Shown piece after piece: positions 6,856 through 60,857 of a stretch of 64,000 nt of DNA. A model generated the notes under the pieces. The model made no database searches. It was not told the origin of the DNA and was given only the letters and a program-made list of their open reading frames with translations. Source of the DNA: Eledone cirrhosa (taxonomy: Eukaryota). The stretch covers positions 279,992,001-280,056,000 of the forward strand of contig OZ024742.1 in NCBI GenBank assembly GCA_964016885.1, written 5' to 3'. The position numbers and the translations under genes are program-made. The first letter of the stretch is position 1, and the number at the start of each line of letters is the position of its first letter.

Positions 6856-6924
<69 letters not shown>

Positions 6925-7317
6925 CAAAGGAAAAGTGGTAAGGAACCAGATGGACCATAACGCACCAAAGTACTCAATACTTAGGGTAGTAGAGTGGGTA
7001 ATAGGAACGAGTAGGGCCCCGTCGGCTGAGCTCAAGCCGTTTCGACGGCTAATTCTGGACTAAATGAAAATTGTTATCCTGTTAAATAAATACCCCAACT
7101 TCTCAGGCGGTAATTCCATATATGGTAAAAGTGCTTGTCACGAGGATTGGTCAAAACTTTGTTGTTGAGACACATGATTCTATCATACCATTTTGTGGAA
7201 GGTAGGGGTAGCTGAACTTGCCAGTAGAAGAAAGGGGGAGAGGGAGTGGGGAAAACCCAGTCGAGCGTTGAAAGTGACAGCTACAGCAGATTCAAAGGAT
7301 AGGAGGTTGAAAAAAGT

Positions 7318-8798
7318 ATACGTTAAGCAAAACGCCAGACTTAGCCTCTGGGTCAACTCCCAGGAAGTAATCTCATGGTTCAGCAATATGGAGGACAAAC
7401 GAGACACACAATTCATCCAGTTTGATATAGAGAGTTACTATGCTTCAATTATCTTACCGCTCTTTACGGCCGCCTTGGACTTTGCCCAGACACTTGCGCC
7501 CATCACCGACCAGGAAAGAAATATCATCCTCCACACCAGGAAGACAGTCCTACTTTTCGACAACTCCAAATGGATAAAGAGTGCTCCCGACTCCCCCTTC
7601 GACGACAGTATGGGCGCGACGGATTCGGCTGAGGTCACAGATCTTTTAGGATTATTCCTACTAGTTAAACTCACCGATATGTTTCCTGCTTTCGGCGGTG
7701 GATTGTACCGTGATGATGGGCTCCTTACCCTTAAAGGGTACAACCCCAGTAGTACAGACCGGGTCCGTAAACAATTAATCAGCTTCTTCCGCGACTGGAG
7801 ATTTAAAATAACCCTACAAACGTCCCTAACCCGAGTAAACTTCCTGGACGTTACCCTTGTCCTCGATAATGATCTGTACTACCCATACTGGAAACCAAAC
7901 GACAACTTGCACTACATCCACCGCCGGTCAAACCATCCTAGAAACATCACCAATAATCTGGTTAAAAACACCTCCCTCCGTATATCTCGTTTGTCCGCTA
8001 ATGAGCAGATATTCGAGGAACATGCGCCTTATTACAACCAGGCCCTCAAGCGGAGTGGCTTCCTGGTGGAAATATCTTACTGTCCAGCTTCCATTAGCGG
8101 AACCAGCAAGCGACACCGCCGCTCACGCAACGTAACATGGTTCAATCCTCCCCACAACGCCGAAGTGACAACACCTATCGGAAAAAATCTTCTTTAGGCT
8201 CATCGAAAAACACTTCCCACTACAACACCGCTACCACAACATAATTAACAAACATACCATCAAACTCTCCTACAGCACCACACCTAACTTTGCACAAAAC
8301 ATCGTCTCCTCTATCAACAAAAAACTCAACCCCTATGGAAGAAATAACCTAGATAGCAGTGGAGAGCCCACCAGGAGGTGTAAATGTCCTGATGGATCCA
8401 TTTGCCCCCTCGACAACAGATGGAGAGATCGTAATGTGATCTACCTGTGCAACGTGAGGACGGACACCTCCAACAAAGCTTATATAGGATTAACCGCTTG
8501 TGACTTCAAGACCCGGCTATACCAACACAGACACAAGACCCGGCTATACCAACACAGACATACTTTCCGAAACCCGGCCCGGCGTCACGCCACTACACCT
8601 TCGGGCCACAGCTGGGACCTCAAAGATAACAATATAACCTATAATCTCACTTGGAGCTTACTGTCCAGAGCCAACTCTTACACGGGAGGACGCCCTCCGT
8701 GTAACTTATGCTCGGAGGAAACATTACAAATGCTGTTTTCGACAGACCAACTCCCAAACAAGAAAGACGAACTGGTAACTGCATGCAAACACATGTAG
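7318..8798 (+). pseudogene. PLE-1 reverse transcriptase + GIY-YIG endonuclease (frameshifted)
   Basis: RT motifs QFDIESYY, MGATDSAE, LYRDDGL, NFLDVTL, SNHP, WFNPP. Frameshift near 8190, linker CKCPDGSICPL, then VIYLC..AYIGLT..FKTRLYQH..CNLCSEE. Confidence 0.93.
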
Positions 8799-9892
8799 AC
8801 AAGGGCTGAAACACCCCACTTGCCGATTTGTAATGGGTAACACCTGCTTACAAAGGTAGACGTAACGTTTTTCTATGGATGTTCTCATATATTTTTTATC
8901 GTTTCCTCTATATTTCCTTCTTCCCCCATTCCTTCTTAGTCCTTCCACCCCAGATCTCCTACTTTGTCGTCGTTCTTTTCACCTTCTCGCCCACCCCGAG
9001 GCAGCCCTTCGGTCCTCTATAGCCTCAGTATTCCCACCCCCCTTATTCTATGATAGAATTGGCCGAATCCGCTCGTTATAGAAGATGTGCTAGACCCCAG
9101 ATACTTGCTTTTATCTATGATTGCTGCCCCATTTCCGTGATTTCTAGATTTCTTAGTGGTATTCCTGCTTTAGTTTCTCGTATATCAGTATTTTTTTTTT
9201 TAGGGGGGGGGGGGGAATTCTGAATTAATTTTTCGTATTAGTTTTTCATATATATCGTACGAGCATTTATGTAGTTTGTATTGTAGCAGTACCCATATAT
9301 ATCGTATTAGTATTCATGTTTCGGGATTCTGAATTAATATTTCGTATTAGTTTCGGGGCTCTGAATTATTATTTCGTATTAGTTTTTCTTTTTTTAGTAT
9401 TTTGGCCCTCTACTTGTTGACCTGTCATTGTAAGATAGATTTTGCCGATTACTACTAACTCATAAAATTCTTTCACTACAATCTCGTATTTAGTATTCCA
9501 TCCCGCCTATTACACTTTTTTATAGCTTAGCAGTACCAGTGAGGGATTTGATGATTGTGGAAGAGGAATAGTAACCATAAATTGTGTTTTTTTTATATTT
9601 TTTATATTTTTTATATTTTTCTATATATTTACTCCATATAGATTTACTTATTGTTTCGACTTCCTGCCCCCTCCCCTTCTCTAGTATACTTTTTTCAACC
9701 TCCTATCCTTTGAATCTGCTGTAGTTGTCACTTTCAACGCTCGACTGGATTTCCTCCACCCCTCTCCTTCTTTCTTCTACTGGCAAGTTCAGCTACCCCT
9801 GCCTTCCACATAATGCCATGATAGAATCATGTGTCTCAACAACAAACTTTTGACCAATCCTTGTGACAATTACTTTTACCATATATGGAATT

Positions 9893-9989
9893 ACCCCCTG
9901 AGAAGTTCGGCTATTCATTTAACAGGATAAAAAATGTTCATTTAGTCCAGAATTAGCTGTCGAAACGGCTTGAGCTCAGCTGTCGGGGT
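9893..9989 (+). ncRNA. Type I hammerhead-like motif in PLE-1 pLTR (non-canonical core)
   Basis: acccc-CTGAGAA-(stem II cggcta/tagctg with long insert)-GAAA-cggcttgagctcagctg-TC-ggggt. The core has a C3/A8 mismatch. The inverted copy at 7016-7111 has a mutated cleavage triplet. Confidence 0.6.
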
Positions 9990-10001
9990 CCTACTCGTTC
10001 C

Positions 10002-10152: not shown

Positions 10153-13100
10153 TCACACTCCTTGCGATCCTTGCTTTCATATATATTACTCAATACCGAG
10201 TACTCATTTCTCTCAGCTGTCAACCATCTACGGATATCTGTATGTTAGGGTCGCCCGTAGCTATACTTAATTTTCTGAAAGTTGAAATTTTGCTGCTCCC
10301 ACATAAAAAAATAGGCGTTTGCCCTATACCTGATTTCTGTCCCTTATCCTTCTAATACCAAGAATAAGTCTAAACAAGTTTCTAATTTAAGAGAAAATTA
10401 TATGAGGTAAAAGAATTTCACCGGAAAAAATAACTTTCCAGGCAGAAACTTATTTATTTACTCTCTTACGTGTTTCGGTCTACTGACTGAGGCCATGTTG
10501 GTGCACCGCCATTGATGCTACACGATCTATACCCAACTTTCCTTCGTTTTTTTATTTCTTTATAAGGTTTCTTATCTCAAAACGTATGTTAAGAGATATT
10601 GTTATACCAGTATAGAGAGCCAGAAAATTACTTTCTATCAAATAGGCACAACACATTAGATATTGAAAGAACGTTAATAAACAAGTGACATAAATGTACA
10701 AGTGCTGGTTGACAGTATGGGAGAATGAGAGCGAGGGAGAGAGAAGGAGAGAGAGAGGGAGAGAGAGAGAGAGAGAGAGCGCGCGTGTGTGTGTGAAAAT
10801 GTGTGTGTGTGTGTGTGAGGAGGCTCTTGTCGTGCACACAGTCATAAAGTGTGATATTGATAAAGTTAAGAGAATATGGCAATGCAAATAACCGAGAAAT
10901 GTTTGAATGAAACCAATTTTAGTGTCTGCTGTCGTGCAAATTGCTACAAAATCCGCGATGGTAATAGATTAAATTACAAACCTTAAGAATTGGGAAGGAC
11001 AATATAAAATGTACACCAGTAATTGTTTCCCACTCGCAATTCATACATAACTGTCCTCTCTTGGTATCGACGATCAGTGGTCCAGTTTTTCGGTCAAAGT
11101 GTTTCGGCCTTCTAATGAGAATTAATTTAATTTTGGATTAATATTTGACAGACACCTGCTCTCTTAACATACGCCCCAGGGAGGTGTGACACAGAATCTA
11201 ACCAGACTGGAATCTTGAATTATATATACTAGCAGGAAAACCACCCGGCGGGTTTTTTTCTGCTAGCATGTGTAGTGTGTATTTTGATATTATACGCAGG
11301 TATATATATATAGATATGATACATCAAATAAAATCGTAATTGACAATATATAATACATAGAAATTGAACGAAGACTGCGTTACACTGTTTTATGTAATCA
11401 GTAACGTAATCCATGATACATTAAAAAAGACGATATTATATATAAACTGCATTAGGAGAAAATTAGTATGTTTATTTAAGCGATCGCCACCGGAAGTGTT
11501 GACATTTCAGAAATTCTAAAGAAGTGAATCTTTAAATAAACAAAATATATTTAATGAACAGCCACGAAATTTAGTAGATACATTATGTAATATTCATTCA
11601 TTATTTATTCAAAGTAATCCAACTTATTTTACAAACGGGATAAAAATAAGAAAATCCGGACGCAATCCCGCAGGCCTTCCTTTATTATAGTTTAAATGGA
11701 CCATCTTGTGAGCATTCCACAGTCCTGTCACGTGTATCGTTGACGTAATTCTCTGAATAATCTAGCGTGTCAGAAGGTGAGATGGGGCTGGTAAGTCAAA
11801 TTATAAGAAGAGTCGGTATTGTGTTATGGAGTGTATGTGGCGGAGTATTAAATAGAGATGGGTACACAACATTTAAAATGGTTCTCAGTGAGTGGTATCA
11901 TTTTAATTAGTACAGGCTTTCAAACAGTTTTTGGGTACCCGATTTCAGACGCAAGGCTTGGGTTGATCCGAAGCTATGTATGATACAGAACACTTGGTCA
12001 AGGGGTCAGGTGTTGAGATTTAACCGGGGACCTTATAATTGCCAAGCGAACTTCTTAACCATACCGTCTATCTATCTATTCGTATCACTATTATAACCAG
12101 CAACAGGGTTGTGGGTTCTTAGAACCATTAGAGCATGGGACAAATACTTGGAAGTATCTGATCCAGCTCTTTAGGTTCTGAGTTCAAATGACTTCCATCC
12201 TTCCATATTTGACAAGATAAAGTACTCTTCACATTCTGTGGCTCAATGTAATCCACTTCCCCCTCTGTCAATATTACTGGTATTGTGCTTAATGTAGAAA
12301 CTGTTATAACCGGTAACGTTTTCTAATAACTATCGCAATGCTTAAGGACAGAGAATTATCTAAATGTTTCTGTAAGTACCCATAAAAAAGAGATATTGAC
12401 AATTTACTTGAAAAAATATACCTGCGTGCAAACAATCAGCTACGTAGGACAACAACCTGGATCATATATGCATACATCCGTCCTCTTTTCCATTCGAAGG
12501 ACTAATTTCGGATCGAAGACTGATGAGAACCAATAGAAATGGTCATTACATATCTTAATTTCAGTATCAAACGCTTGTTTTTTTAGTTAACAAGTTATGC
12601 TTCATTTCATTTCTTTGCTTCTCGTTGATATTTCATTCACACCGTAATCCCGTAGTCAATAAACACATCAGTACCAATAAACCATCCATCCATGAAACCT
12701 GAACTTCTGATGGAGAGGGAAAGGTGTAGTTGCATTTAAACCTTGTGGATAAGGGAGAGAAAATAAGTAAGATGAGAAAAAGGAAACATTGATTCCATTA
12801 CGTTACTAGAATTGTATTAATCGACTTCAAAATTATGAAAAGACAAAACTAGGCTCGGCTAGATTTCAACTCATAGTTCGAACGCAGAGAGCCTGAACGT
12901 ATACAGCACATCATTCTAGGCGACATTATAACGATTCTGCTAATTCGCTAGCTTACTAACAGTAACGTTGATTAGATGGAAATTTTCTACAATGTTCCTC
13001 TCCCATTTATAAAATTGGCTTCGTGTTTAATCGACATGAAGTCATTATCGAACAAAGGAAAAAAAACAAAACATGGAAAACATTTTACTGGACCTTAAAT

Positions 13101-15587: not shown

Positions 15588-16433
<846 letters not shown>

Positions 16434-16656
16434 ATTGGAATAAATGCTCTGAAATAGCGATATATATGTGAATATAGACATAGAATATTCGAAAATATTC
16501 TGTATGTTTATAATAAACGTTTTGAAGACCTAATCGCTATAGAATAGAATACGTCACGTATTACAATTAGATTCTCGATAAAAGCAAGGGAAGTAAGTCT
16601 ACGCGTTTCATTCTTGTTAGAATTCATCAGGACTACATATCCAGTGCTTTCATCGA
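16434..16656 (-). repeat. Inverted partial copy of the 311-bp unit, including a hammerhead on the minus strand (16571-16656)
   Basis: Reverse complement of the unit segment tcgatgaaagc...atttattccaa, with one visible mismatch. Confidence 0.93.
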
Positions 16657-19600
16657 CAACCGCTCTTTCAAACCAGTTCCTGTACACAGCTAAGTATTCT
16701 ATAAGTCTCTAGCTGTGTCATTCTCGATGAAAGCACTGGATATGTAGTCCTGATGAATTCTAACAAGAATGAAACGCGTAGACTTACTTCCCTTGCTTTT
16801 ATCGAGAATCTAATTGTAATACGTGACGTATTCTATTCTATAGCGATTAGGTCTTCAAAATGTTTATTATAAACATACAGAATATTTTCGAATATTCTAT
16901 GTCTATATTCACATATATATCGCTATTTCAGAGCATTTATTCCAATTTCTAATTTCTGCCGGACCGGCAACCGCTCTTTCAAACCAGTTCCTGTACACAG
17001 CTAAGTATTCTATAAGTCTCTAGCTGTGTCATTCTCGATGAAAGCACTGGATATGTAGTCCTGATGAATTCTAACAAGAATGAAACGCGTAGACTTACTT
17101 CCCTTGCTTTTATCGAGAATCTAATTGTAATACGTGACGTATTCTATTCTATAGCGATTAGGTCTTCAAAATGTTTATTATAAACATACAGAATATTTTC
17201 GAATATTCTATGTCTATATTCACATATATATCGCTATTTCAGATCATTTATTCCAATTTCTAATTTCTGCCGGACCGGCAACCGCTCTTTCAAACCAGTT
17301 CCTGTACACAGCTAAGTATTCTATAAGTCTCTAGCTGTGTCATTCTCGATGAAAGCACTGGATATGTAGTCCTGATGAATTCTAACAAGAATGAAACGCG
17401 TAGACTTACTTCCCTTGCTTTTATCGAGAATCTAATTGTAATACGTGACGTATTCTATTCTATAGCGATTAGGTCTTCAAAATGTTTATTATAAACATAC
17501 AGAATATTTTCGAATATTCTATGTCTATATTCACATATATATCGCTATTTCAGAGCATTTATTCCAATTTCTAATTTCTGCCGGACCGGCAACCGCTCTT
17601 TCAAACCAGTTCCTGTACACAGCTAAGTATTCTATAAGTCTCTAGCTGTGTCATTCTCGATGAAAGCACTGGATATGTAGTCCTGATGAATTCTAACAAG
17701 AATGAAACGCGTAGACTTACTTCCCTTGCTTTTATCGAGAATCTAATTGTAATACGTGACGTATTCTATTCTATAGCGATTAGGTCTTCAAAATGTTTAT
17801 TATAAACATACAGAATATTTTCGAATATTCTATGTCTATATTCACATATATATCGCTATTTCAGAGCATTTATTCCAATTTCTAATTTCTGCCGGACCGG
17901 CAACCGCTCTTTCAAACCAGTTCCTGTACACAGCTAAGTATTCTATAAGTCTCTAGCTGTGTCATTCTCGATGAAAGCACTGGATATGTAGTCCTGATGA
18001 ATTCTAACAAGAATGAAACGCGTAGACTTACTTCCCTTGCTTTTATCGAGAATCTAATTGTAATACGTGACGTATTCTATTCTATAGCGATTAGGTCTTC
18101 AAAATGTTTATTATAAACATACAGAATATTTTCGAATATTCTATGTCTATATTCACATATATATCGCTATTTCAGAGCATTTATTCCAATTTCTAATTTC
18201 TGCCGGACCGGCAACCGCTCTTTCAAACCAGTTCCTGTACACAGCTAAGTATTCTATAAGTCTCTAGCTGTGTCATTCTCGATGAAAGCACTGGATATGT
18301 AGTCCTGATGAATTCTAACAAGAATGAAACGCGTAGACTTACTTCCCTTGCTTTTATCGAGAATCTAATTGTAATACGTGACGTATTCTATTCTATAGCG
18401 ATTAGGTCTTCAAAATGTTTATTATAAACATACAGAATATTTTCGAATATTCTATGTCTATATTCACATATATATCGCTATTTCAGAGCATTTATTCCAA
18501 TTTCTAATTTCTGCCGGACCGGCAACCGCTCTTTCAAACCAGTTCCTGTACACAGCTAAGTATTCTATAAGTCTCTAGCTGTGTCATTCTCGATGAAAGC
18601 ACTGGATATGTAGTCCTGATGAATTCTAACAAGAATGAAACGCGTAGACTTACTTCCCTTGCTTTTATCGAGAATCTAATTGTAATACGTGACGTATTCT
18701 ATTCTATAGCGATTAGGTCTTCAAAATGTTTATTATAAACATACAGAATATTTTCGAATATTCTATGTCTATATTCACATATATATCGCTATTTCAGAGC
18801 ATTTATTCCAATTTCTAATTTCTGCCGGACCGGCAACCGCTCTTTCAAACCAGTTCCTGTACACAGCTAAGTATTCTATAAGTCTCTAGCTGTGTCATTC
18901 TCGATGAAAGCACTGGATATGTAGTCCTGATGAATTCTAACAAGAATGAAACGCGTAGACTTACTTCCCTTGCTTTTATCGAGAATCTAATTGTAATACG
19001 TGACGTATTCTATTCTATAGCGATTAGGTCTTCAAAATGTTTATTATAAACATACAGAATATTTTCGAATATTCTATGTCTATATTCACATATATATCGC
19101 TATTTCAGAGCATTTATTCCAATTTCTAATTTCTGCCGGACCGGCAACCGCTCTTTCAAACCAGTTCCTGTACACAGCTAAGTATTCTATAAGTCTCTAG
19201 CTGTGTCATTCTCGATGAAAGCACTGGATATGTAGTCCTGATGAATTCTAACAAGAATGAAACGCGTAGACTTACTTCCCTTGCTTTTATCGAGAATCTA
19301 ATTGTAATACGTGACGTATTCTATTCTATAGCGATTAGGTCTTCAAAATGTTTATTATAAACATACAGAATATTTTCGAATATTCTATGTCTATATTCAC
19401 ATATATATCGCTATTTCAGAGCATTTATTCCAATTTCTAATTTCTGCCGGACCGGCAACCGCTCTTTCAAACCAGTTCCTGTACACAGCTAAGTATTCTA
19501 TAAGTCTCTAGCTGTGTCATTCTCGATGAAAGCACTGGATATGTAGTCCTGATGAATTCTAACAAGAATGAAACGCGTAGACTTACTTCCCTTGCTTTTA

Positions 19601-20643
19601 TCGAGAATCTAATTGTAATACGTGACGTATTCTATTCTATAGCGATTAGGTCTTCAAAATGTTTATTATAAACATACAGAATATTTTCGAATATTCTATG
19701 TCTATATTCACATATATATCGCTATTTCAGAGCATTTATTCCAATTTCTAATTTCTGCCGGACCGGCAACCGCTCTTTCAAACCAGTTCCTGTACACAGC
19801 TAAGTATTCTATAAGTCTCTAGCTGTGTCATTCTCGATGAAAGCACTGGATATGTAGTCCTGATGAATTCTAACAAGAATGAAACGCGTAGACTTACTTC
19901 CCTTGCTTTTATCGAGAATCTAATTGTAATACGTGACGTATTCTATTCTATAGCGATTAGGTCTTCAAAATGTTTATTATAAACATACAGAATATTTTCG
20001 AATATTCTATGTCTATATTCACATATATATCGCTATTTCAGAGCATTTATTCCAATTTCTAATTTCTGCCGGACCGGCAACCGCTCTTTCAAACCAGTTC
20101 CTGTACACAGCTAAGTATTCTATAAGTCTCTAGCTGTGTCATTCTCGATGAAAGCACTGGATATGTAGTCCTGATGAATTCTAACAAGAATGAAACGCGT
20201 AGACTTACTTCCCTTGCTTTTATCGAGAATCTAATTGTAATACGTGACGTATTCTATTCTATAGCGATTAGGTCTTCAAAATGTTTATTATAAACATACA
20301 GAATATTTTCGAATATTCTATGTCTATATTCACATATATATCGCTATTTCAGAGCATTTATTCCAATTTCTAATTTCTGCCGGACCGGCAACCGCTCTTT
20401 CAAACCAGTTCCTGTACACAGCTAAGTATTCTATAAGTCTCTAGCTGTGTCATTCTCGATGAAAGCACTGGATATGTAGTCCTGATGAATTCTAACAAGA
20501 ATGAAACGCGTAGACTTACTTCCCTTGCTTTTATCGAGAATCTAATTGTAATACGTGACGTATTCTATTCTATAGCGATTAGGTCTTCAAAATGTTTATT
20601 ATAAACATACAGAATATTTTCGAATATTCTATGTCTATATTCA
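16657..20643 (+). repeat. Tandem array of 311-bp units (~12.8 copies), retrozyme-like
   Basis: caaccgctctttc recurs at 16657, 16968, 17279 ... 20389 (period 311). Copies are essentially identical (one visible G>T at 17244). No ORF. Confidence 0.96.
16720..16809 (+). ncRNA. Type I hammerhead ribozyme (first of 13 tandem copies, +311 each)
   Basis: agtc-CTGATGA-attct(aaca)agaat-GAAA-cgcg-TA-gact: canonical core, stem II attct/agaat, palindromic stem III ACGCGT, GUA cleavage after 16780. Stem I is extended by attctcgatgaaagca/tgcttttatcgagaat. Confidence 0.92.
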
Positions 20644-20657
20644 TATATATATATATT

Positions 20658-20706
<49 letters not shown>

Positions 20707-20715
20707 ATCTATATT

Positions 20716-20858
<143 letters not shown>

Positions 20859-20874
20859 ATATTTATATGTATAT

Positions 20875-20991
20875 AAGTTGAAAAAAAAAATGAAAACGAA
20901 ATTTCATTTCTCACTCTTAGTATGGCACTTACTTAAATGTAAGTATGTATGTATACGTACATACACATATGTATACAGACGTACAGTAACA

Positions 20992-21052
<61 letters not shown>

Positions 21053-21493
21053 GCATACAGATACACATACATATATGCACGCATCAGTTTAGCCGACGTT
21101 TATTATAACGCAGCTTTGTTCGCTTGTTTGTCAACAAATCGACAGCCTGAATTTATGCCATACGGTGTTAAGGCAACCACGTCACCTTTTTATTCAACAC
21201 TGACACAGGAACGATGTACTAGTTTCAAGCTTGTTAGCTATCATCAGCACCGTTTACCCATCTGCCAGATAGTTGAACGTTCGAAAGTATATACTTTCCT
21301 TATGAAAATTAACGGCTGAGCAGCCTAATTTGCATATTGAGTGAGTTAAATCGGTCAGGCATAACGAAAACGACAAGTTGAAAAAAAAGAACTGAAAACG
21401 AAATTTCATTTCTCACTCTTAGTATGGCACTTACTTAAATGTAAGTATGTATGTATACGTACATACATATATGTATACAGACGTACAGTAGCA

Positions 21494-21538
<45 letters not shown>

Positions 21539-21978
21539 GCATACAGGTACACATACATATATGCACGCGTCAGTTTAGCCGACGTTTATTATAACGCAGC
21601 TTTGTTCGCTTGTTTGTCAACAAATCGAACAACCTGAATTTATGCCATACGGTGTTAAGGCAACCACGTCACCTTTTTGTTCAACACTGACACAGGAACG
21701 ATGTACTAGTTTCAAGCTTGTTAGCTATCATCAGCACCGTTTACCCATCTGCCAGATAGTTGAACGTTCGAAAGTATATACTTTCCTTATGAAAATTAAC
21801 GGCTGAGCAGCCTAATTTGCATATTGAGTGAGTTAAATCGGTCAGGCATACCGAAAACGACAAGTTGAAAAAAAAAATGAAAACGAAATTTCATTTCTCA
21901 CTCTTAGTATGGCACTTACTTAAATGTAAGTATGTATGTATACGTACATACATATATGTATACAGACGTACAGTAGCA

Positions 21979-22029
<51 letters not shown>

Positions 22030-22184
22030 GCATACAGGTACACATACATATATGCACGCATCAGTTTAGCCGACGTTTATTATAACGCAGCTTTGTTCGC
22101 TTGTTTGTCAACAAATCGAACAGCCTGAATTCATGCCATACGGTGTTAAGGCAACCACGTCACCTTTTTCTTCAACACTGACAC
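20875..22184 (-). repeat. Tandem array of ~487-500-bp units (~2.7 copies) carrying minus-strand hammerheads
   Basis: Units start at 20875, 21375 and 21862; length differences come from an internal (TA)n. Confidence 0.92.
21210..21254 (-). ncRNA. Type I hammerhead ribozyme (second copy at 21697-21741)
   Basis: Reverse complement reads aacggtg-CTGATGA-tagct(aaca)agctt-GAAA-ctag-TA-catcgtt. Confidence 0.85.
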
Positions 22185-22680
22185 ATGTATGTACGTATAC
22201 ATACATACTTACATTTAAGTAAGTGCCATACTAAGAGTGAGAAATGAAATTTCGTTTTCATTTTTTTTTTTCAACTTGTCGTTTTCGGTATGCCTGACCG
22301 ATTTAACTCACTCAATATGCAAATTAGGCTGCTCAGCCGTTAATTTTCATAAGGAAAGTATATACTTTCGAACGTTCAACTATCTGGCAGATGGGTAAAC
22401 GGTGCTGATGATAGCTAACAAGCTTGAAACTAGTACATCGTTCCTGTGTCAGTGTTGAACAAAAAGTTGACTTGGTTGCCTTAACACCGTATGGCATAAA
22501 TTCAGGCTGTTCAGTTTGTTGACAAACAAGCGAACATAAGCTGCGTTATAATAAACGTCGGCTAAACTGATGCGTGCATATATGTATGTGTACCTGTATG
22601 CATATGTGTATATATATATATGCATGCTACTGTACGTCTGTATACATATATGTATGTACGTATCCATACATACTTACATT
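22185..22680 (+). repeat. Inverted, circularly permuted copy of the ~487-bp unit
   Basis: Reverse complement of the preceding array, spanning a unit junction. Confidence 0.9.
22398..22442 (+). ncRNA. Type I hammerhead ribozyme in the inverted copy
   Basis: aacggtg-CTGATGA-tagct(aaca)agctt-GAAA-ctag-TA-catcgtt; 7-bp stem I with one G-U, palindromic stem III ACTAGT. Confidence 0.85.
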
Positions 22681-23966: not shown

Positions 23967-23998
<32 letters not shown>

Positions 23999-24014
23999 GG
24001 CCGGAAGATAGGTA

Positions 24015-24059
24015 AATATTGCTGATGAGATGTAACAACATCGAAACTAGTCCAATATT
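24015..24059 (+). ncRNA. Canonical type I hammerhead ribozyme in a solo element (23993-24352) related to the ~487-bp family
   Basis: aatattg-CTGATGA-gatgt(aaca)acatc-GAAA-ctag-TC-caatatt: perfect stems I and II, GUC triplet, flanked by (TA)n. Confidence 0.92.
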
Positions 24060-24713: not shown

Positions 24714-25930
<1,217 letters not shown>

Positions 25931-25941
25931 TTTCACATTTA

Positions 25942-26665
<724 letters not shown>

Positions 26666-40521: not shown

Positions 40522-40602
<81 letters not shown>

Positions 40603-41383
40603 TATGACCCCGACGGCAGAGCTCAAGCCGTTTCGACGGCTATTTCTGGACTAAATTAGAATTTTTAGCCTGGTGGATAAATAGCCGAACTTGTTAAGGG
40701 GGTACTTCCTTATATGGGAGGATTGTAGTTGTCAAGAGGATTGGTTAAAATTTGTTGTAAACAAATAAGTCTATCATGGCATTTGGTGGGAGGTAGGGAT
40801 AGCTGAACTTGCCTGTAGAACAATACGGGAGTGAGTGGAGCGGTCAAGCGTTGAATGTGATATGTATACAGCAGATTCTAAGGATAGTGTATGAAGTGGA
40901 GGAGGGAGGTTATAGAATAGGTAAATCGAATGAGAGTAGGAGACAATAAAATATACTAGAAAAAAATATATATATATAAAATTAGATAGTGAGAAACGAA
41001 TAAAAAAATAAATCACGATGCTATCTTACAATTACAGGTTAATAAGTTGAGAATAGAAAAAACTTGTAGAAATTACAAACTGATACAAAATTAAAGGGGT
41101 TTAACACATCTGCTATACGTAGTTAGTAAAACGTATTCGGCCAATTCTATGTTAAAATTACAGGGGTGGGGGAACTGATGCTACAAGACCCGATGGGCTG
41201 CATCGGGGTAGGCGAAAGGGGAAAAGCAGACGAGGAAGAAAATAGGGGGTGGAAGGAAGTGATATGATGAGACAGGGGGAATAAGAAGACAAAGAGGAAA
41301 AGAAAAGAGTTACATCTACCTATGTAAGCTGTGGATTCCCCTAACTTATTCGGCAAGCGGGATGGGGGGATATCAGCCCTTGT

Positions 41384-43490
41384 CTACCCACCCGGGTCGT
41401 TATAGGGTTTGAGGGCGATGAATGTCGTACGCAATCTGTGTTTGCATGTGGTTACCAGTTCGTCTTTTTTGTTTAGGAGTTGGTCTTTCGAAAACAGCAT
41501 TTGTAATGTTTCCACCGAGTTACACTGACAGCGTCCTCCAGTGTAAGAGTTAGCTCTGGACAGTAAGCTCCAAGTGAGATTGTAGGTTATATTATTATCT
41601 TGGAGGTCCCAGATGTGGCCCGAAAGTGTAGTGGCATGTCGCCGGACCGGCTTTCGGAAAGTATGTCGGTGTTGGTAGAGCCAGGTCTTGAAGTCACACG
41701 CGGTTAATCCTATATAAGCTTTGTTGGAGGTGTCTGTCATCACGTTGCATTGGTAGGGCATGTTACGTTCTCGGCATTTGTTGTTGAGGGGGCACAGAGA
41801 TCTATCAGGGCAGTTACACCTTCTGGTCGGCTCTCAACTGATGTCTAGGTTGATTTTTTTTTGTTTGAGGAGACGATGTTTTGTGCGAAGTTGGTTGTAG
41901 TGCTGTAGTTTGATGGTGTTTTTGTTGATTATGTTGTGGTAGCGGTGTTGTAGTGGGAAGTGTTTTTCCAGGAGTCTAAAGAAGATTTATCGATAGGTGT
42001 TGCCACCTCGGCATTGTGGGGAGGATTGAACCACGTCACGTTGCGTGAGCGGCGGTGTCGCCTGCTGGTTCCGCTAAGGGAAGCTGGATAAAAGGATATT
42101 TCCTCCCGGAAGCCACTCCGCTTGAGGGCCTGGTTGTAATGTGGCGCGTGTTCGTCGAATATCTGTTCATTAGCGGACAAACGAGATATGCGGAGGTAGA
42201 TATTTTTAACCAGGTTATTGTTGATGCTTCTAGGATGGTTAGAGCGGCGTTGGATGTAGTGCAGGTTATCGTTTGGTTTCCTGTATGGGTGGTACAGATC
42301 ATTTTCGAGGTTACGGGTAACTTACAGGAAATTGACTCGGGTTAGGGACGTTTGTATGGTGATTTTAAATCCCCAGTCCCGGAAGAAGTTGATTAGTTGT
42401 TTACGGACCAAGTCTGTACTACTGGGGTTGTACCCTTTGATGGTGAGGGGCCCATCATCCCTGTACAATCCACCGCGGAATGCAGGAAACATTTCGCTGA
42501 GTTTAAATAGTAGGAATAATCCTATAAGATCTGTGACCTCGGCCGAATCCGTCGCGCCTATACTGACGTCGAAGGGAGAGTCGGGAGCTTTCTTTATCCA
42601 CTTGGAGTTGTCGAAAAGTAGGACTGTCTTCGTGGCGTGGAGAATGATATTTCTTTCCTGGGTGTGAGTGTTTCAGCAAAGTCCAAGGCAGCCGTAAGGA
42701 GCGGTAAGGTAATATATGCATAGTAACTCTATCTCAAACTGGATGAATTTTGTGTCTCGTTCGTCCTCCATATTCCTGAACCATGAGATTACTTCCTGGG
42801 TGCTGACTCATAGGCTAAGTCTCACGTTTTGCTTAACTTTTGGTATAACTCGGTCTAGGATCTTTTTACTGATTCTCCCTATGTCCGACTTCGTTGGGTT
42901 TATAAGCCTAATGGATGGTCTGCGGTCGAAGTCGGATTTGTGGTCCTTCAGTGTGAAGTAGGGAGTCCATGGGTCAAGGTGTCCAGTGCGGTCGGCGCTC
43001 CCGCTGCTGGAGTTAATTTGTTGTTCATCTCGATTTATGTCCTCGATAATTGAATGGTTAGCCTTTTTATAGGTGGAGTTTAGGCTCCTTCTGATCAGTG
43101 TGTGGTATCTGTCAGGGTTGACGAAATAGAGGTTTCCAGCTTTGCCGAGTGCACCATGATGTCGTTGTTGTTTTCATACTCTGTTATTTTGCTACGGAGT
43201 TGTTGTAGGAATCTGTTGTGTCTGGGTTTGAATTTAATGATCCTGACCAGGTGGAAAAGGTCGTTCTCGAAGGGTGAGAGCATATGGTTCGGAGGGGGAG
43301 ATATGTAGGTATTGAATCTCTCCTTGGTGTCGAAGTCCTGATTGTCGCGGTATCTATCGTAGAAAGAAGTTCTCCATCTTAGTCTTTTCGCAAAAAGGTT
43401 GATTGTTTTGCGTGAGCAGCCGAAGGTAAAGTTTTCTCGGTGGAACTGGGATATCCATGGTGGAGAAATAGATGTTTTTTTTTCGCATCG
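41384..43490 (-). pseudogene. PLE-2 RT + GIY-YIG ORF (multiple frameshifts)
   Basis: N-terminal STMDIPVPP..KRLRWR and LSPFENDLFHLVRIIKF; RT QFEIESYY, GATDSAE, LYRDDG, WFNPP; linker CNCPDRSLCPLNNKC; AYIGLTACDFKT. Confidence 0.93.
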
Positions 43491-43676
43491 TGCGGGTGAA
43501 GAAACTTGAGCTGGGTGGAAAAGATGGGATATGGCGTGGTAGAGTCGGAAAGTGCTCTACTAGAGAGATAGGAGATAAATAACAAAGGAATTGTGGTAAG
43601 GAACCAGATGGACCGTAATGGACGCACTAGAGTACTCAATACGTAGGGTAGTAGAGTGGGAAATAGTAAAAAATAT

Positions 43677-43775
43677 GACCCCGACGGCAGAGCTCAAGCC
43701 GTTTCGACGGCTATTTCTGGACTAAATTAGAATTTTTAGCCTGGTGAATAAATAGCCGAACTCTTCAAGGGGGTA
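43677..43775 (-). ncRNA. Hammerhead-like motif in PLE-2 pLTR (other copies 40606-40705 minus, 45219-45315 plus)
   Basis: cccc-TTGAAGA-gttcggctattt...aaatagccgtc-GAAA-cggcttgagctctgccg-TC-gggg; U3-G8 wobble core. The other copies read TTAACAA and TTGACAT. Confidence 0.65.
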
Positions 43776-45404
43776 CTTCCTTATATGAGAAGATTGTAGT
43801 TGTCAAATGGATTGGTTAAAATGTGTTGTAAACACAAATAAGTCTATCCTGGCATTTGGTGGCAGGTAGGGGTGGCTGAACTTGCCTGTAGAACAATAGG
43901 GGAGTGAATGGAGCGGTCAAGTGTTGAAAGTGATATGTATACAGCAGATTCTAAGGATAGTGTAAGAAGTGGAGGAGGTAGGTTATAGAATACGGAAATC
44001 GAATGAGAGTAGGAGAAATAAAAATACTAGAAATAAATAAAATAATATATAAAATTAGATAGTGAGAAATGATTAAAAAGAAAAAATCACAGTGCTATCT
44101 TACAATTATAGGTTAGTAAGTTGAGAATAGAAAAAACTTGTAGAAATTACAAAACTGATACAACATTAAAGGGGTTTAACACATCTGTTATAAGTAGTTA
44201 GTAAAACGTATTCGGCCAATTCTATCATAAAATTACAGTGGTCGGGGACTGATGCTACAAGACCCGATGGGCTGCATTTGGGTAGGCGAAAGGGAAAAAG
44301 CAGACGAGGAAGAAAATAGAGGGTGGAAGGAAGTGATAGGATGAGACAGGGGGAAGAAGAAGAGAAAGAGGAAAAGAAAAGAGTTACATCTACCTATGTA
44401 AGCTGGGGTTTCCCCTAACTTATTCGTCAGGCGGGGGGGGGGGGGTATCAGCCCTTATCTACGCACTCGGGTCGTTATAGGGTTTGAGGGCGAGGTAAGT
44501 CCTACGCAATCTGTGTTTGCATGCGGTAACCAGTTCGTCTTTCTTGTTTAGGAGTTGGTCTTTCGAAACCGAATAAGTTAAGGGAATCCACAGCTTACAT
44601 AGGTAGATGTAACTCTTTTCTTTTCCTCTTTGTCTTCTTATTCCCCCTGTCTCATCATATCACTTCCTTCCACCCCTATTTTCTTCCTCGTCTGCTTTTC
44701 CCCTTTCGCCTACCCCGATGCAGCCCATCGGGTCTTGTAGCATCAGTTCCCCCACCCCTGTAATTTTAACATAGAATTGGCCGAATACGTTTTACTAACT
44801 ACGTATAGCAGATGTGTTAAACCCCTTTAATTTTGTATCAGTTTGTAATTTCTACAAGTTTTTTCTATTCTCAACTTATTAACCTGTAATTGTAAGATAG
44901 CATCGTGATTTATTTTTTTATTCGTTTCTCACTATCTAATTTTATATATATATTTTTTTTCTAGTATATTTTATTGTCTCCTACTCTCATTCGATTTACC
45001 TATTCTATAACCTCCCTCCTCCACTTCATACACTATCCTTAGAATCTGCTGTATACATATCACATTCAACGCTTGACCGCTCCACTCACTCCCGTATTGT
45101 TCTACAGGCAAGTTCAGCTATCCCTACCTCCCAGCAAATGCCATGATAGACTTATTTGTGTTTACAACAAATGTTAACCAATCCTCTTGATAACTACAAT
45201 CTTCCCATATAAGGAAGTACCCCCTTGACATGTTCAGCTATTTATTCACCAGTCTAAACATTCTAATTTAGTCCAGAAATAGTCGTCGGATCGGCTTGAG
45301 CTCTGCCGTCGGGGTCATACTGTTTCCTATTTCCCACTCTACTACTATAAGTATTGAGTTCTCTGGTGCGTTATGGTCCATTTGGTTCCTTACCACAATT
45401 CCTT

Positions 45405-45442
<38 letters not shown>

Positions 45443-54601: not shown

Positions 54602-54649
<48 letters not shown>

Positions 54650-54767
54650 AAATCAATTAAGGGAGTCATGTCCGAGACATGCACCATATACTCAAAGATT
54701 CCAATGAATAGATCCTACCATTTTATATCAACTAGAAATTTACATATATATATTTAAAATAAACACA

Positions 54768-55108
54768 TGATTATTTCTCTTTTCCTATTATTATGTTTAA
54801 AGGAGTTAGTATTGTTGGATATGTACTTAATCGGTTCGCTAAATCCGCTAGTGTGAAGGGCTTTATTATAGTAGTGGGGTGTCTTATTGAAAATAGCTTC
54901 TGAGGAAGAGAGGGTGAAGATGCTACGGCTAATATTAGGGATAAGGTTTTTAAATACTATAGGAGGATGGCAAGAGCCTTTATTTATGTATTTTAAATTC
55001 TCATTAGGTTTATGGTACGGTTTATAAGAAGCAGTAGGCAGATCTAGGTTTATATCTAGAAAATTGTCATTGGAAAGGTTAGTGTCAATAGTAATTTTAA
55101 GATTAAAA
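54768..55108 (-). mobile_element. Inverted duplicate of the PLE-3 RT thumb region
   Basis: Reverse complement of ~56562-56903 with a few substitutions. Confidence 0.85.
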
Positions 55109-55489
55109 TGTTCGTGTAGGAAGTGTTAGAAGGTGTTGGGATATTCTTATTAGAGTAATCCAAAGGATATTTATCCATGTTCAGTATTGGTTTAAAATCC
55201 TATTGACCGAAGAGTGCTCGACTTTAAAAGGGCTGGAAGGTGCCAATCTCATAAAAATGTAGAATATGCTACGATCATTCCCTTGGGAGCTGTATAAGTA
55301 TTGAAGTTTCCGTTGAAAATTAAAAAAGTCATAGGAGTGAAGAGTGCTCTATGTAAGTACCAGAGCTAAATTTAATGTATAATAAACAATACAATATAAT
55401 TACCTCATTACCAGAGGTTTCCCGAATAAGACGAATACGAAAAACGTCCTCATTCGTTCTTCGGACAAGGCAATTTAAAACATAGTGAA

Positions 55490-57550
55490 ATATTTGAAAA
55501 ATCTCCTCACGAAAATGCTGATAGACAAAGTAGAGAAAGTTGTTAAAAGAATGATATGGAAACCTTAGATTCTCGACGGACACTTTTATACGGCCTCTAC
55601 GGAACATTTTGATATCAAAACTCATAAATACCCGCAACGAGTAAAAGATATGACCACTTTTGAACTAGACTTAGTTAATTTAATCAACAATATCAAATTT
55701 CGTAAGTACTCTAACCCTTTTCAATCTAAACTATCTAATGATATTTCAATATTCAAATCCTCTAAAAATAAGTCCGTTTTCTACGACAAAACTAAAAACT
55801 TATACGAAGTTATTACTACTTTACATGACCAACACTTACTAGATAACATCACCTCTAAATACCAAATAGCTGATATAAACACGTATAATAATATAAATAA
55901 GGAATCTAAAGAATTAGCTAGTGTTTTAAAAATAGATAATAGAACTGAAACACTTGCTAAATTGCTAAACGTAATGCCTATATCAAAGATCACAAACGTG
56001 ATTTTATTAATCGTCCTAGTTGGAGATTAATCAACTCTGCTACGACTGATATGGGTCTTGCAAGCAAGAAAATTTTAAATAATATAAACACACAGATTAG
56101 AAGTAAGCCTGAATTACTCAAATGGATAAATAGCTCTTCGGTAGTACATTGGTTTAACAATATTAAAGATACAAATAGTTCTAGACTCACCCAATTTGAC
56201 ATTTTAGACTTTTACCCGTCTATTACTCACCCTCTTTTAGCGAAAGCCTTAAATTTCGCTAGAAAGTTTATCAATATTTCTGATATTGAAGAGAATGTCA
56301 TCTTCCATGTTAGAAACACTCTACTTTTTACTAATAATGACACTTGGGTAAAAATATATAACCCAGAGAGCCCATTCGATGTGTCAATGGGTTCTTTTGA
56401 CAGTGCTGATGTTTGTGATTTAGTGCGCATACACACACTTAAAGAGAAATTACCTAACCATATTTTTGGGCTTTACCACGACAATGGTCTAATACTTTCC
56501 CATACCACCATAGGCCATGACTTAGATAGATTAAGGAAAGTCTTAATACAAAACTTGGCTAGTTTTAATCTTAAAATTACTATTGACACTAATCTTTCCA
56601 ATGTTAATTTTCTAGATATAAACCTAGATCTGCCTACTGCTTCTTATAAACCGTACCATAAACCTAATGAAAATTTAAAATACATAAATAAAGGCTCTTG
56701 CCATCCTCCTATAGTTTTAAAAACCTTATCCCTAATATTAGCCGTAGGATCTCTACCCTCTCTTCCTCAGAAGCTATTTTCAATAAGGCATCCCTCTACT
56801 ATAATAAAGCCCTTCAAACTAGCGGATTTAGCGAACCGATTAAGTACATACCCAACAATAGTAACTCCTTTAAACATAATAATAGGAAAAGAAAAATAAT
56901 CTGGTTCACAACCTCCTACTCTTTAGCAGTTAAAACTAATGTAGGCAAAACATTCCTAGAGCTCTTAGATAAATATTTCCCTAGAACACATAGATACTAT
57001 AAGATCTTCAATAGAAACTGTGTCAAAATTAGCTGCTCCTGCGGTCCCCCTATTAAATCTTATATCCTCAATAAAAAAACACCCAGAGAACATCAAAATT
57101 GCTCATGTAGAGTCAAAAGTGAATGCCCATTACAAGGTAAATGCAACACCAAAGCCATTGTATATGCGGCTAAAGTGACAACCATCAGCAACAACCTACC
57201 AGCCACCAGCGAACGATATATGGGTATGACACAAGACAAATTCAAAACACATAATTACTCACATGTCGCATCTTTCCGACATCCAGAAAAAAGATTTACA
57301 ACAGCTCTGGCTAGCAGAATATGGGATTTGAAAGACTAAGGTATCCAATATAAATTGGATTGGTCAATTTTGAACCAATCTAAAGAATATGCAAGAGGAA
57401 CAAGAAGAGATGCCCACTCTGCATAAGTGAAAAATATTGGATTTTACAGAGCCTTAAATCACCAAAAACATGCCTAAACGCAAAAACAGAAATTTTCATC
57501 AGTTGCCCACACACGAAATCACACTTGCTTTCCAGCTCATATAAACTTAA
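55490..57550 (+). pseudogene. PLE-3 RT + GIY-YIG ORF (frameshifted)
   Basis: MLIDKVEKVVKRMIWK, FELDLVNLINNIKF, QFDILDFYPSI, MGSFDSAD, LYHDNGL (decayed YRDDG), NFLDINL, IIWF, CSCRVKSECPLQGKC, IVYAAKV..RYMGMT..FKTH..H. Confidence 0.93.
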
Positions 57551-58019
57551 CTCACTTTCAGATACTTATCCTCCATAGACTCTTGTTCTTCACTTTCCTT
57601 AAATTATCCTATTTACAGACTTCTCTTTCTGATTTACTTTCATTTTTAACTTTATTTTTAATTTTATTTTTATTTTTACTTCACATCCACCCCTACATTT
57701 TGATTCACTTACCTAATATCTTCACATTCCACATTTTACTTCCCCATTTTCTTTCACCACCTGATATTCTGTCACTTGCGTTTTCCACTCCAGATATATT
57801 CTGTTGTTTCCCAACCGATTTCATATTTGTACTAATTTATTAATACGGTTGGTTTCTAATTTGTGTCTATGCGTGTGAGTGTGCATATGTGTGCGTGCGT
57901 ATGTATATATATGTGTGTTTTTATATCTATGTTTTTACATACTTGTTTATACGTGTGTGTGTGTGTGGGTGAATGTATGTGTATATGTATATGTATATGT
58001 ATATGTATGTATGGGTGTG

Positions 58020-58074
<55 letters not shown>

Positions 58075-58169
58075 GCGTACGTACGTGTGATTAGATATAC
58101 ATATGGCGATATATATATATACGTGCCTCGTGTGTATGTACGCATGCATGCGCTTTTGTCTGTACGTAT

Positions 58170-58225
<56 letters not shown>

Positions 58226-58781
58226 ACGTGTGTACCTTTGTTTGTTTTCCTTTTTCTAGTGTTAATTGATAACCCCTCCCTCTTACTTTCTCTCTGATTT
58301 AAAAAAATGATTTTCATTCTCATATATTGTTTCATTTTTATACATATAGCGAGAATGACACTTCTTTTTACTATTACACTCCCTTCCCTCTTTATCTTCC
58401 GCATATAAGGGATCGCGTGTGTGTGTGTCTTTATACTCGTGCTTTCATACTCGTATGTGTATTTAATATCTTTATCTGGATGCGTGTTAACTATATTATC
58501 ATACAATTTCTTTTTCAACTCATATTATATACGTATTTGTGGTCACACATACATAAATATATTTGCCCTCATGTATGCACTTACGCACACATTTTCACCA
58601 TACACATGCATTTGTACATACACACATATGTACATTTGTGAGTGTATATACATACACATACCCTAACTATATTTCCTTATTTTTTTTATATATCTGTTGC
58701 ATTACTTTTATTTATATATTTTTTGCCCGTTAAACTCTTGCCTTTCTTGAGGAGATTTTTCAAATATTTCACTATGTTTTA

Positions 58782-58859
58782 AATTGCCTTGTCCGATGAA
58801 CGAATGAGGACGTTTTTCGTATTCGTCTTATTCGGGAAACCTCTGGTAATGAGGTAATT
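58782..58859 (+). ncRNA. Hammerhead-like motif in PLE-3 pLTR (U4C core)
   Basis: aattgccttgt-CCGATGA-acgaatgaggacg..cgtcttattcgg-GAAA-cctctgg-TA-atgaggtaatt; 11-bp stem I. The inverted copy near 55397-55474 has CCGAAGA. Confidence 0.65.
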
Positions 58860-58958
58860 ATATTGTATTGTTTACTATATATTAAATTTAGTTCTGGTAC
58901 TTACATAGAGCACTCTTCACTCCTATGACTTTTTCAATTTTCAACGGAAACTTCAATA

Positions 58959-59480
<522 letters not shown>

Positions 59481-60188: not shown

Positions 60189-60564
60189 ATATATATATTA
60201 ATATATATATATTAATATATATTAGAATTGGTACTCTGAAATTGCAATGTATATATGAATATATATTTAGTATATTTGGCAATACACTGTATGCTTAATT
60301 AAAAAACATTTTGAAGACCTTACGCTTTAAAGTAGTGACTATGTCACTGGTTGGATTCTTATAGAATTCCAGTAATAATTAGGAACTGAGTATATAGAGC
60401 GGTTGCCGGTCCAGCAAACAATGAAAATTAGTATTGGTGCTCTGAAATAGTGATGTATATATGAATGTATATATAGTATATTTGGCAATACACTGTATGC
60501 TGGTAATTACTGGAATTCTATTAGAATCCAACATTTATAATTTTCAACAAACAAAGAAAGTGCC

Positions 60565-60610
60565 AAGCTCTGACGAATACCTACAGTATGAAACAGAGAT
60601 ATGTCAGCTT
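60565..60610 (+). ncRNA. Canonical type I hammerhead in a diverged relative of the 311-bp unit (60222-60730)
   Basis: aagct-CTGACGA-atac(ctaca)gtat-GAAA-cagagatatg-TC-agctt; stem I extended by ttttcaacaaacaa/ttgtttgttgaaaa (60541-60631). Confidence 0.88.
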
Positions 60611-60857
60611 ATCTCCCATTGTTTGTTGAAAAAAGAAGTAAGTGACATAGTCACTCCTTTAAAACAATAGCGTAAGTTCTTCAAAATGTTTTTAATTAAG
60701 CATATAGTGTATTGCGAAATATACTATATATACATATATATATATATAAGGGAAAGAAATCGACGAAAATGTAACTGGAGTCCGTTTAAGAATATTTATT
60801 TGCTTCCTTCACCGGTTTCACAGTTCTTATACTTTTCAAAATTAGAGATGGATGCTG

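What the first reader, a model, noticed from the sequence alone, without database searches (positions are those of the whole stretch)
16434..16656. Inverted truncated head on the 311-bp array mimics PLE insertion architecture
Seen: the array begins with a 223-bp reverse-complement partial unit joined directly to the first forward unit, the same geometry as the inverted 5' pLTRs of the three coding PLEs here (6923, 44569, 55294). Inference: the non-coding array was inserted by PLE machinery in trans rather than amplified as ordinary satellite DNA. The fold-back could also produce dsRNA.
Basis: partly seen in the sequence, partly recalled or inferred. Interest (0 to 1): 0.72.

Follow-up and report, generated by a model that had tools for sequence, protein, structure and literature searches.

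The report
Hammerhead retrozyme with Penelope insertion footprint
A 311-base non-coding repeat carrying a predicted self-cutting RNA motif sits as about 13 near-identical copies plus a mirror-image partial copy inside a TA repeat, with ends shaped like those of Penelope-type jumping genes, so it is likely a new member of the known animal 'retrozymes' and was likely pasted in by such a gene's enzyme.

Summary
Observation confirmed. 16434-16656 is the reverse complement of unit bases 68-290 (1 mismatch in 223), joined bluntly to 12.8 copies of a 311-bp unit (1 mismatch in 12 full units). Both outer ends are sense 3' ends on (TA)n, 35 nt apart on the unit, the Penelope 'tail' signature. A 76%-identical relative in the window ends at the same two sites, and 9 contigs of a public run leave the unit for TA at the short site. 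Head and body share a family allele of about 2% frequency, pointing to one template. The three coding neighbours (Hydra-like PLEs) share the topology but not the sequence or tail length (about 80 nt), so the partner is unidentified. Cleavage, circular RNA, rolling-circle copying and dsRNA are untested; no genome was available, so a pLTR origin is not excluded. PLE mobilisation of retrozymes is already proposed in print; five searches found no junction evidence for it. The scan reported this same pattern before at many other loci of this genome.

The parts
15588..16435 (.). Left target flank: degenerate (TA)n, with a TTT variant about every 18 nt next to the insert
16434..16656 (-). Inverted head: unit positions 68-290 on the minus strand; outer end is the 'long' 3' end (2 nt shared with the TA tract)
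   Evidence: 1 mismatch in 223
16434..16468 (-). 35-nt one-sided extension ('tail'): unit positions 256-290, present at the head end and absent at the body's right end
16600..16630 (-). Type I hammerhead core in the head (predicted cleavage after 16600)
16657..20643 (+). Body: 12 full 311-bp units plus 255 nt; right end is the 'short' 3' end at the unit's internal (AT)4
16750..16780 (+). First of 13 body hammerhead cores (repeats every 311 bp to 20482-20512): CUGAUGA, 5-bp stem II with AACA loop, GAAA, palindromic 2-bp stem III, predicted GUA cleavage
   Evidence: Rfam HH9 only 17.8 bits, below gathering 52
20644..20875 (.). Right target flank: degenerate (TA)n with the same TTT polarity as the left flank
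20876..22679 (-). Comparator B: second hammerhead family, 487-bp unit, 2.7 units on the minus strand plus an inverted arm of about one unit (22186-22679); tail about 61 nt
60221..60735 (+). Comparator E: old relative of the 311-bp family (74-76% over 80-130 nt), head-to-head, ends at the same two unit sites
6924..10001 (+). Comparator PLE1: 5'-truncated Hydra-like PLE, inverted head 6924-7321, tail about 79 nt
40597..45407 (-). Comparator PLE2: Hydra-like PLE in partial tandem with inverted arm 44569-45407, tail about 84 nt
54647..58960 (+). Comparator PLE3: Hydra-like PLE, body from about 55515, inverted arm 54647-55514

Best explanation
The array is a young copy of a non-coding, hammerhead-bearing 311-bp repeat (a non-LTR retrozyme) that was likely inserted in one event by a Penelope-like reverse transcriptase/endonuclease acting in trans. 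Shown: the hammerhead motif in every unit, head-to-head arms, both sense 3' ends on (TA)n, the 35-nt offset, and shared alleles in head and body. Inferred: the RNA is cut at each hammerhead into 311-nt monomers and circularised; the PLE enzyme cuts both strands of a (TA)n tract; one target 3' end primes at unit 255-264 (helped by the internal (AT)4) and copies round the circle 12.8 times; the other primes at unit 290 and stops after 223 nt; the two cDNA ends are joined bluntly and filled in. The partner PLE is not among the three in this window and remains unidentified.
For: Hammerhead descriptor hits 13 body units and the head; 1 chance core in 30 shuffled windows. Across three hammerhead families of the window 32 of 33 stem cells pair and 7 of 11 pairs change on both sides; slid controls pair 27-43% (only 3 sequences). 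The circular monomer folds at -67.3 kcal/mol, 0 of 60 shuffles as low, with stems I and II formed. Ends: unit 255 and 290; relative E ends at the equivalent two sites; in run X1, of the 6 loose-end rows shown (21 in all), TA continues from unit 264 in 9 contigs and from unit 295 in 1. All 13 body units and the head carry G at unit 73, which is about 2% of summed contig depth in X1 (359,533 of 366,761 read A). In family B all 14 substitutions or single-base indels at sites covered by four copies are private to one copy, none split 2:2. Both flanks have the same TTT polarity, so the head is not an inverted copy of the right end with its flank. Two further head-to-head joints appear in X2 and X3 contigs (16485 to 16695 and 16654 to 16704; sides of only 20-22 nt). 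In print: inverted 5'-truncated copy plus one-sided 30-40-bp tail is the EN+ PLE layout (PMC8557442; PMC3846280); a PLE protein cleaves and extends both strands and starts at two sites that bound the tail (PMC11167929); circle copying by PLEs is the proposed retrozyme route (PMC7229834).
Against: No sequence link between the unit and any PLE end in the window or PLE proteins; tails of the coding neighbours are about 79 and 84 nt, not 35. Heads are not obligatory: the solo hammerhead element 23993-24351 has none, and one contig each in X1 and X3 joins TA directly to the 5' side at unit 226. Rfam gives no hit at gathering level and only 17.8 bits to HH9. The window's variant has an extra T that shortens stem I next to the cleavage site; a large share of X1-X3 depth lacks it. 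In the 2026 preprint 8 of 9 predicted Xenopus retrozyme dimers did not cleave in vitro, and hammerhead cleavage was not needed for PAc insertion in vitro. No target-site duplication can be read: the best flank match (66 nt) is expected from the 18-nt periodicity. Only three clear hammerhead loci with heads were examined directly (A, B, E).
Confidence: 0.7

Rival explanations
1. PLE machinery inserted only a head plus one or two units, or copied a linear multimeric transcript; the 13-mer then grew or was kept uniform at the DNA level (unequal exchange, slippage). No RNA circle is needed.
For: This is the amplification model of the 2026 preprint. Unprocessed RNA was the dominant substrate of PAc in vitro. 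A very young array is uniform under either route, and assemblers can smooth tandem arrays (own knowledge).
Against: The two differences in the array are singletons and were not passed to neighbours; family B shows only private variants in 14 of 14 sites. Both are small samples.
Confidence: 0.15
2. The unit is simply the pLTR of a coding PLE elsewhere in the genome, and the array is a pLTR multimer or terminal stutter rather than an independent retrozyme family.
For: 24 of 57 Xenopus retrozyme families match known repeats, nearly all PLE ends. Earlier scan notes in other genomes resolved similar arrays this way (unchecked). No genome was available to exclude it.
Against: The hammerhead is the canonical type with helix III and an extended helix I, not the minimal PLE form. 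No match of the unit to 10 PLE proteins or ORF pieces at E below 0.5. In X2 and X3 the unit-to-unit joint has depth about 4,500-4,800, against tens for other joints. Only part of the loose ends was listed, so an ORF junction is not excluded.
Confidence: 0.1
3. Ordinary satellite with a DNA-level fold-back (replication template switch or breakage-fusion) or a long-read assembly artefact.
For: The exact junction 16656|16657 was not independently confirmed by reads (see Tried and rejected).
Against: A fold-back would invert the flank; both flanks have the same polarity. The head extends 35 nt past the body's end, to a site reused in element E. The same layout occurs in old elements whose arms have diverged by 3-14%.
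Confidence: 0.05

Closest known systems
Metazoan non-LTR retrozymes (Cervera and de la Pena 2020, PMC7229834; review PMC7761336; Li, Clavereau and Pollet 2026, bioRxiv 10.64898/2026.07.22.740005)
   Same: Non-coding tandem unit of about 300 bp, low GC, one canonical type I hammerhead per unit with a short palindromic helix III, highly self-paired predicted circle, PLEs in the same genome.
   Different: The texts seen describe no inverted arm, two-site ends or (TA)n targeting for retrozymes (the preprint has no 'junction', 'tail' or 'head-to-head'; the review says the repeats show no motif that names the partner). Expression and cleavage are shown there and untested here.
EN+ Penelope-like elements, insertion layout (Craig et al. 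2021, PMC8557442; Arkhipova et al. 2013, PMC3846280; Frangieh et al. 2024, PMC11167929)
   Same: Inverted 5'-truncated arm, head-to-head junction, one-sided 30-40-nt tail, (TA)n target, no readable TSD.
   Different: No ORF; a 13-mer of one short unit; no sequence shared with the local PLE ends.
Non-autonomous Chlamys elements such as MRC1, and pLTR-flanked cargo moved in trans in Adineta vaga (PMC8557442; PMC3846280)
   Same: Non-coding or foreign cargo inserted with PLE-type tandem or inverted structure.
   Different: Those share 3' ends or pLTRs with a known autonomous family; here no partner is identified, and the unit bears a canonical hammerhead.
LINE-1 twin priming (recalled, not read)
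   Same: Both target strands prime cDNA, giving an inverted 5' part.
   Different: L1 primes at a poly(A) tail and internally upstream on one linear RNA; here both starts lie 35 nt apart and the arms overlap in sequence.

Membership tests
Non-LTR retrozyme | Tandem non-coding unit of about 150-450 bp, GC below 45%, no LTR/PBS/PPT | tested here: met
   311-bp unit x 12.8; stops in all six frames of the dimer; GC about 39% around the junction; PBS/PPT not searched for specifically
Non-LTR retrozyme | Type I hammerhead with full catalytic core in at least two consecutive units | tested here: met
   13 of 13 body units plus the head; covariation across three families; Rfam below gathering
Non-LTR retrozyme | Multiple dispersed genomic loci | tested here: met
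   Relative E in the window; 456-591 variant contigs and several distinct TA and inversion joints in runs X1-X3, one sample; copy number not measured
Non-LTR retrozyme | Highly self-paired monomer circle (prediction) | tested here: met
   59% paired, z about -4.4, 0 of 60 shuffles
Non-LTR retrozyme | RNA self-cleavage | not testable with these tools
   needs in vitro transcription
Non-LTR retrozyme | Expression as linear and circular monomer RNA | not testable with these tools
   no raw RNA reads could be laid; see Tried and rejected
PLE-type insertion | Inverted 5'-truncated arm joined head-to-head | tested here: met
PLE-type insertion | One-sided tail of 30-40 bp | tested here: met
   35 nt (unit 255 against 290; 26 nt if the short end is placed at 264)
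PLE-type insertion | AT-rich or (TA)n target | tested here: met
   both flanks; TA loose ends in X1
PLE-type insertion | Target-site duplication (optional in PLEs) | tested here: inconclusive
   66-nt flank match explained by periodicity
Non-autonomous derivative of a named PLE | 3' end or pLTR shared with an autonomous family | tested here: not met
   Within the window only: no match to PLE1-3 or the PLE piece at 24829-25943; rest of the genome not available
Hydra clade (for the coding neighbours PLE1-3) | C-terminal GIY-YIG, RWK-like and DKT motifs, CxCX5C linker, CxxC and CxH around the EN end, (TA)n target | tested here: met
   CxCX5C in all three, DKT in PLE3, RLRW/RMIWK in PLE2/PLE3, terminal CxLC and CxH in PLE1 and PLE3 against the definition in PMC8557442; no tree was built, and not every motif survives in every copy

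The most novel reading that the evidence does not exclude
The array is a direct genomic record of two-ended rolling-circle target-primed reverse transcription: a Penelope-like enzyme primes from both strands of one cut (TA)n site at two fixed positions 35 nt apart on a single 311-nt ribozyme circle, one strand going round 12.8 times. This would supply the missing insertion-site evidence that PLEs mobilise retrozyme circles, and would name the recognition element (unit 184-300: a long hairpin followed by an unpaired pyrimidine-rich stretch). A bolder add-on, at about 5%: the lone closed 310-nt contigs in runs labelled as other organisms reflect a circle that moves between species rather than carry-over.
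Probability: 0.4. Interest if true: 0.7.

Novelty: new member of a known kind. Interest (0 to 1): 0.47.

Why it matters
How hammerhead repeats of animals (newt satellite 2 and the later retrozymes) get back into the genome is still a proposal: PLEs are suspected from co-occurrence and pLTR likeness, with copying of an RNA circle assumed. An insertion scar is the kind of evidence that tied SINEs to LINEs. Here a canonical retrozyme multimer carries the PLE-specific scar (inverted arm, two fixed starts, one-sided tail, TA target) and head and body share a rare allele. That gives exact, testable predictions: two RT start sites on the RNA and multi-turn products on a circular template with a purified PLE protein. 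The element class, the partner idea and the circle model are all published, so the gain is supporting evidence, not a new system.

Tried and rejected
No whole genome is held for this window, so locus counts and the pLTR test could not be run. Rfam at gathering threshold: 0 hits in 64 kb; the miRNA-family E-value hits at the junction only reflect the fold-back and were rejected. Metagenome scan with a 35-nt hammerhead pattern: 0 matches. Sequencing-run search: no RNA holder listed. Raw-read run X23: 0 reads laid from about 1 in 100 of the run, which the tool marks as no test. The inner junction 16656|16657 is bridged by none of the 22 pieces listed for X2, X3, X8 and X12 (1,064 more not shown), so it is neither confirmed nor refuted by reads. 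8 of the 24 listed runs were laid. Horizontal transfer was considered because 20 runs from 17 studies hold half or more of the unit's words: in the 4 non-A runs laid as contigs (X4, X5, X8, X12) there is one contig each, without flanks or loose ends, carrying alleles also present in X1-X3, so genomic residence there is not shown and carry-over of a very abundant sequence is the simpler reading. My first clade guess for PLE1-3 (Neptune) was dropped for Hydra. Pfam gave only sub-threshold GIY-YIG hits. Six hammerhead-like sites were aligned first; three (63123, 60570, 40180) were dropped before the pair count because they were decayed or misaligned, leaving 3 of 6. The first self-BLAST was swamped by microsatellites and redone on masked sequence. 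A TSD search was uninformative. The script's tail estimate for element E (41 nt) differs from my by-eye count (35 nt) because of AT-rich slippage. Literature searches found no paper on retrozyme insertion junctions; subscription journals are largely missing, the preprint's supplements are closed, and the supplements of PMC7229834 (model figure S9) were not opened.

Full report
Observation. The stretch 16434-16656 is the reverse complement of positions 68-290 of the 311-bp unit, with one mismatch in 223. It joins the first forward unit at 16657 with no exact microhomology and no extra bases. The body has 12 full units, differing at one base in total, and a 13th that stops at unit position 255 (window 20643). 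Both flanks are degenerate (TA)n.

What the unit is. A descriptor scan finds a complete type I hammerhead in 13 of 13 body units and in the head: CUGAUGA at unit 94, a 5-bp stem II with an AACA loop, GAAA, a palindromic two-pair stem III and a predicted GUA cleavage site after unit 124. Thirty shuffled windows gave one chance core in all. Rfam has no hit at gathering level and scores the motif 17.8 bits against HH9, so the call rests on the descriptor and on comparison. Two other hammerhead families in the window (487-bp family B and a solo element at 24022) keep the same core and loop with different stems: 32 of 33 cells pair, 7 of 11 pairs change on both sides, and slid controls pair 27-43%. 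That count used 3 of the 6 sites first aligned. As a circle the monomer folds at -67.3 kcal/mol, lower than all 60 shuffles, with hammerhead stems I and II formed on a long helix. This fits the definition of metazoan non-LTR retrozymes (PMC7229834, passages and Discussion seen; bioRxiv 10.64898/2026.07.22.740005, parts 1-3 of 5 seen, abstract to acknowledgements).

End geometry. The hammerhead gives the sense strand. Sense runs outward from the junction on both arms, so both outer ends are 3' ends lying on (TA)n. The right end is at unit 255, where the unit continues with an (AT)4 that could pair with the target; the left end is at unit 290. The offset is 35 nt. An inverted 5'-truncated copy and a one-sided 30-40-bp tail are the described layout of endonuclease-bearing PLEs (PMC8557442 and PMC3846280, passages seen). 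A purified PLE protein cleaves and extends both strands of AT-rich DNA and starts reverse transcription at two sites that bound the tail (PMC11167929, passages seen).

Independent loci. Element E (60221-60735), 74-76% identical to the unit over 80-130 nt, is head-to-head and ends at the equivalent of 290 on the left and 255-264 on the right. If ends were random on 311 nt the joint chance would be about 1 in 2,000 (my estimate; the short end is favoured by its AT run under any TA priming). Family B has the same layout with the long end on the body and a tail of about 61 nt. In run X1, 517 contigs lie on the unit; among the 6 loose-end rows shown of 21, TA follows unit 264 in 9 contigs and unit 295 in 1. 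Runs X2 and X3 (same sample as X1) each show one other head-to-head joint, with short sides of 20-22 nt. Against a strict rule: the solo element 23993-24351 has no head, and X1 and X3 show TA joined directly at the 5' side of unit 226. Of four clear hammerhead insertions in the window, three have a head.

One template. All 13 body units and the head carry G at unit 73, where about 98% of summed contig depth in X1 reads A; they also share A at 101 (about 24%) and an extra T in stem I. These shares come from contig depths and are rough. The head's single mismatch is private (X2 and X3 read the body base). In family B all 14 variant sites covered by four copies are private to one copy. Both flanks show the TTT form of the degenerate TA repeat, so the head is not an inverted duplicate of the right end and its flank. 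These points favour one insertion from one RNA variant over stepwise satellite growth or DNA fold-back, though they do not separate a circle from a uniform linear multimer.

The coding neighbours. PLE1-3 have RT followed by a CxCX5C linker and GIY-YIG, with DKT and RWK-like motifs where preserved, which matches the Hydra clade, nearly all of whose families insert in (TA)n (PMC8557442). Each has an inverted arm. But the unit matches none of their ends or proteins, and the PLE1 and PLE2 tails are about 79 and 84 nt. They share the footprint type; they are not shown to be the partner. No conserved hammerhead core lies in their terminal repeats.

Fold-back RNA. A transcript across the junction would form a 223-bp stem around a 67-nt loop region. 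Sense transcription diverges from the junction, so this needs read-through from outside or antisense transcription. No RNA data bear on it.

Mechanism, marked. Shown: motif, arms, ends, flanks, shared alleles. Inferred from known families: transcription, self-cleavage (likely helped by dimer formation through the palindromic helix III, PMC4209133, passages seen), ligation to a circle, two-strand nicking of (TA)n and priming at the two sites by a PLE protein. Inferred from this locus: one strand copied 12.8 turns, the other 223 nt, then blunt joining. Cautions from print: 8 of 9 predicted Xenopus dimers did not cleave, and PAc used unprocessed RNA in vitro.

Novelty. Retrozymes, the PLE partner idea and circle copying are published. 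Five searches found no description of inverted arms or two-site ends on retrozyme arrays; the 2026 preprint lacks the words junction, tail and head-to-head. Trans-moved cargo with PLE layout is known, and opposite-strand minimal hammerheads 100-700 bp apart were noted in 2014. Supplements that I did not see may bear on this. The scan's own notes list the same reading at many other loci of this genome; my reading was written before seeing them, and they are leads, not support. Verdict: a real, young retrozyme insertion with a clean PLE footprint; new member of a known kind; interest 0.47.

Noticed in passing
public runs X4, X5, X8, X12: Twenty runs from 17 studies under 18 organism labels hold half or more of the unit's 31-mers. 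Three of the four non-A runs laid give a single closed 310-nt contig and one a 280-nt contig, all without flanks; X8 carries a different haplotype from X4 and X5. Carry-over of an abundant sequence is likeliest; close relatives or a mobile circle are not excluded.
   Followed up: partly
window 20876-22679: Second hammerhead family (487-bp unit, U-U mismatch at the base of stem II, internal TA run of variable length), inserted head-to-head in the same TA tract as the 311-bp array.
   Followed up: yes
window 23993-24351: Solo hammerhead element with a textbook core and 7-bp stem I, no inverted arm, TA on both sides; its 3' end resembles family B's by eye.
   Followed up: partly
window 52218-53899: 595-bp unit x 2.8 between TA tracts with no hammerhead core, no inverted arm and no credible Rfam hit; possibly a ribozyme-less passenger or one with another ribozyme.
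   Followed up: partly
window 26059-26664, 48459-48915, 59481-60183, 62054-62190: Four more short non-coding head-to-head inserts in TA, three with one long and one short end (tails about 61, 89 and 138 nt); 26059-26664 is the end of the GIY-YIG element at 24829-25943, whose CX4CxxC linker looks Neptune-like. Family B's tail has the same length (61 nt) without visible sequence likeness.
   Followed up: partly
window 54647-55514: PLE3's inverted arm is an internally deleted copy: terminal repeat, ORF start, then a jump to mid-RT sequence and about 120 nt of unassigned sequence.
   Followed up: partly
window 15588-16435: The 848-bp TA tract switches from AAA-type to TTT-type interruptions near 15860, as if part of the tract were inverted.
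   Followed up: no
window 6792-6831 and 10187-10226: An exact 40-bp direct repeat lies outside the TA tracts on both sides of PLE1, but not in the position of a simple target-site duplication.
   Followed up: no
window 63070-63135 and 40168-40225: Decayed hammerhead-like cores of further families.
   Followed up: no
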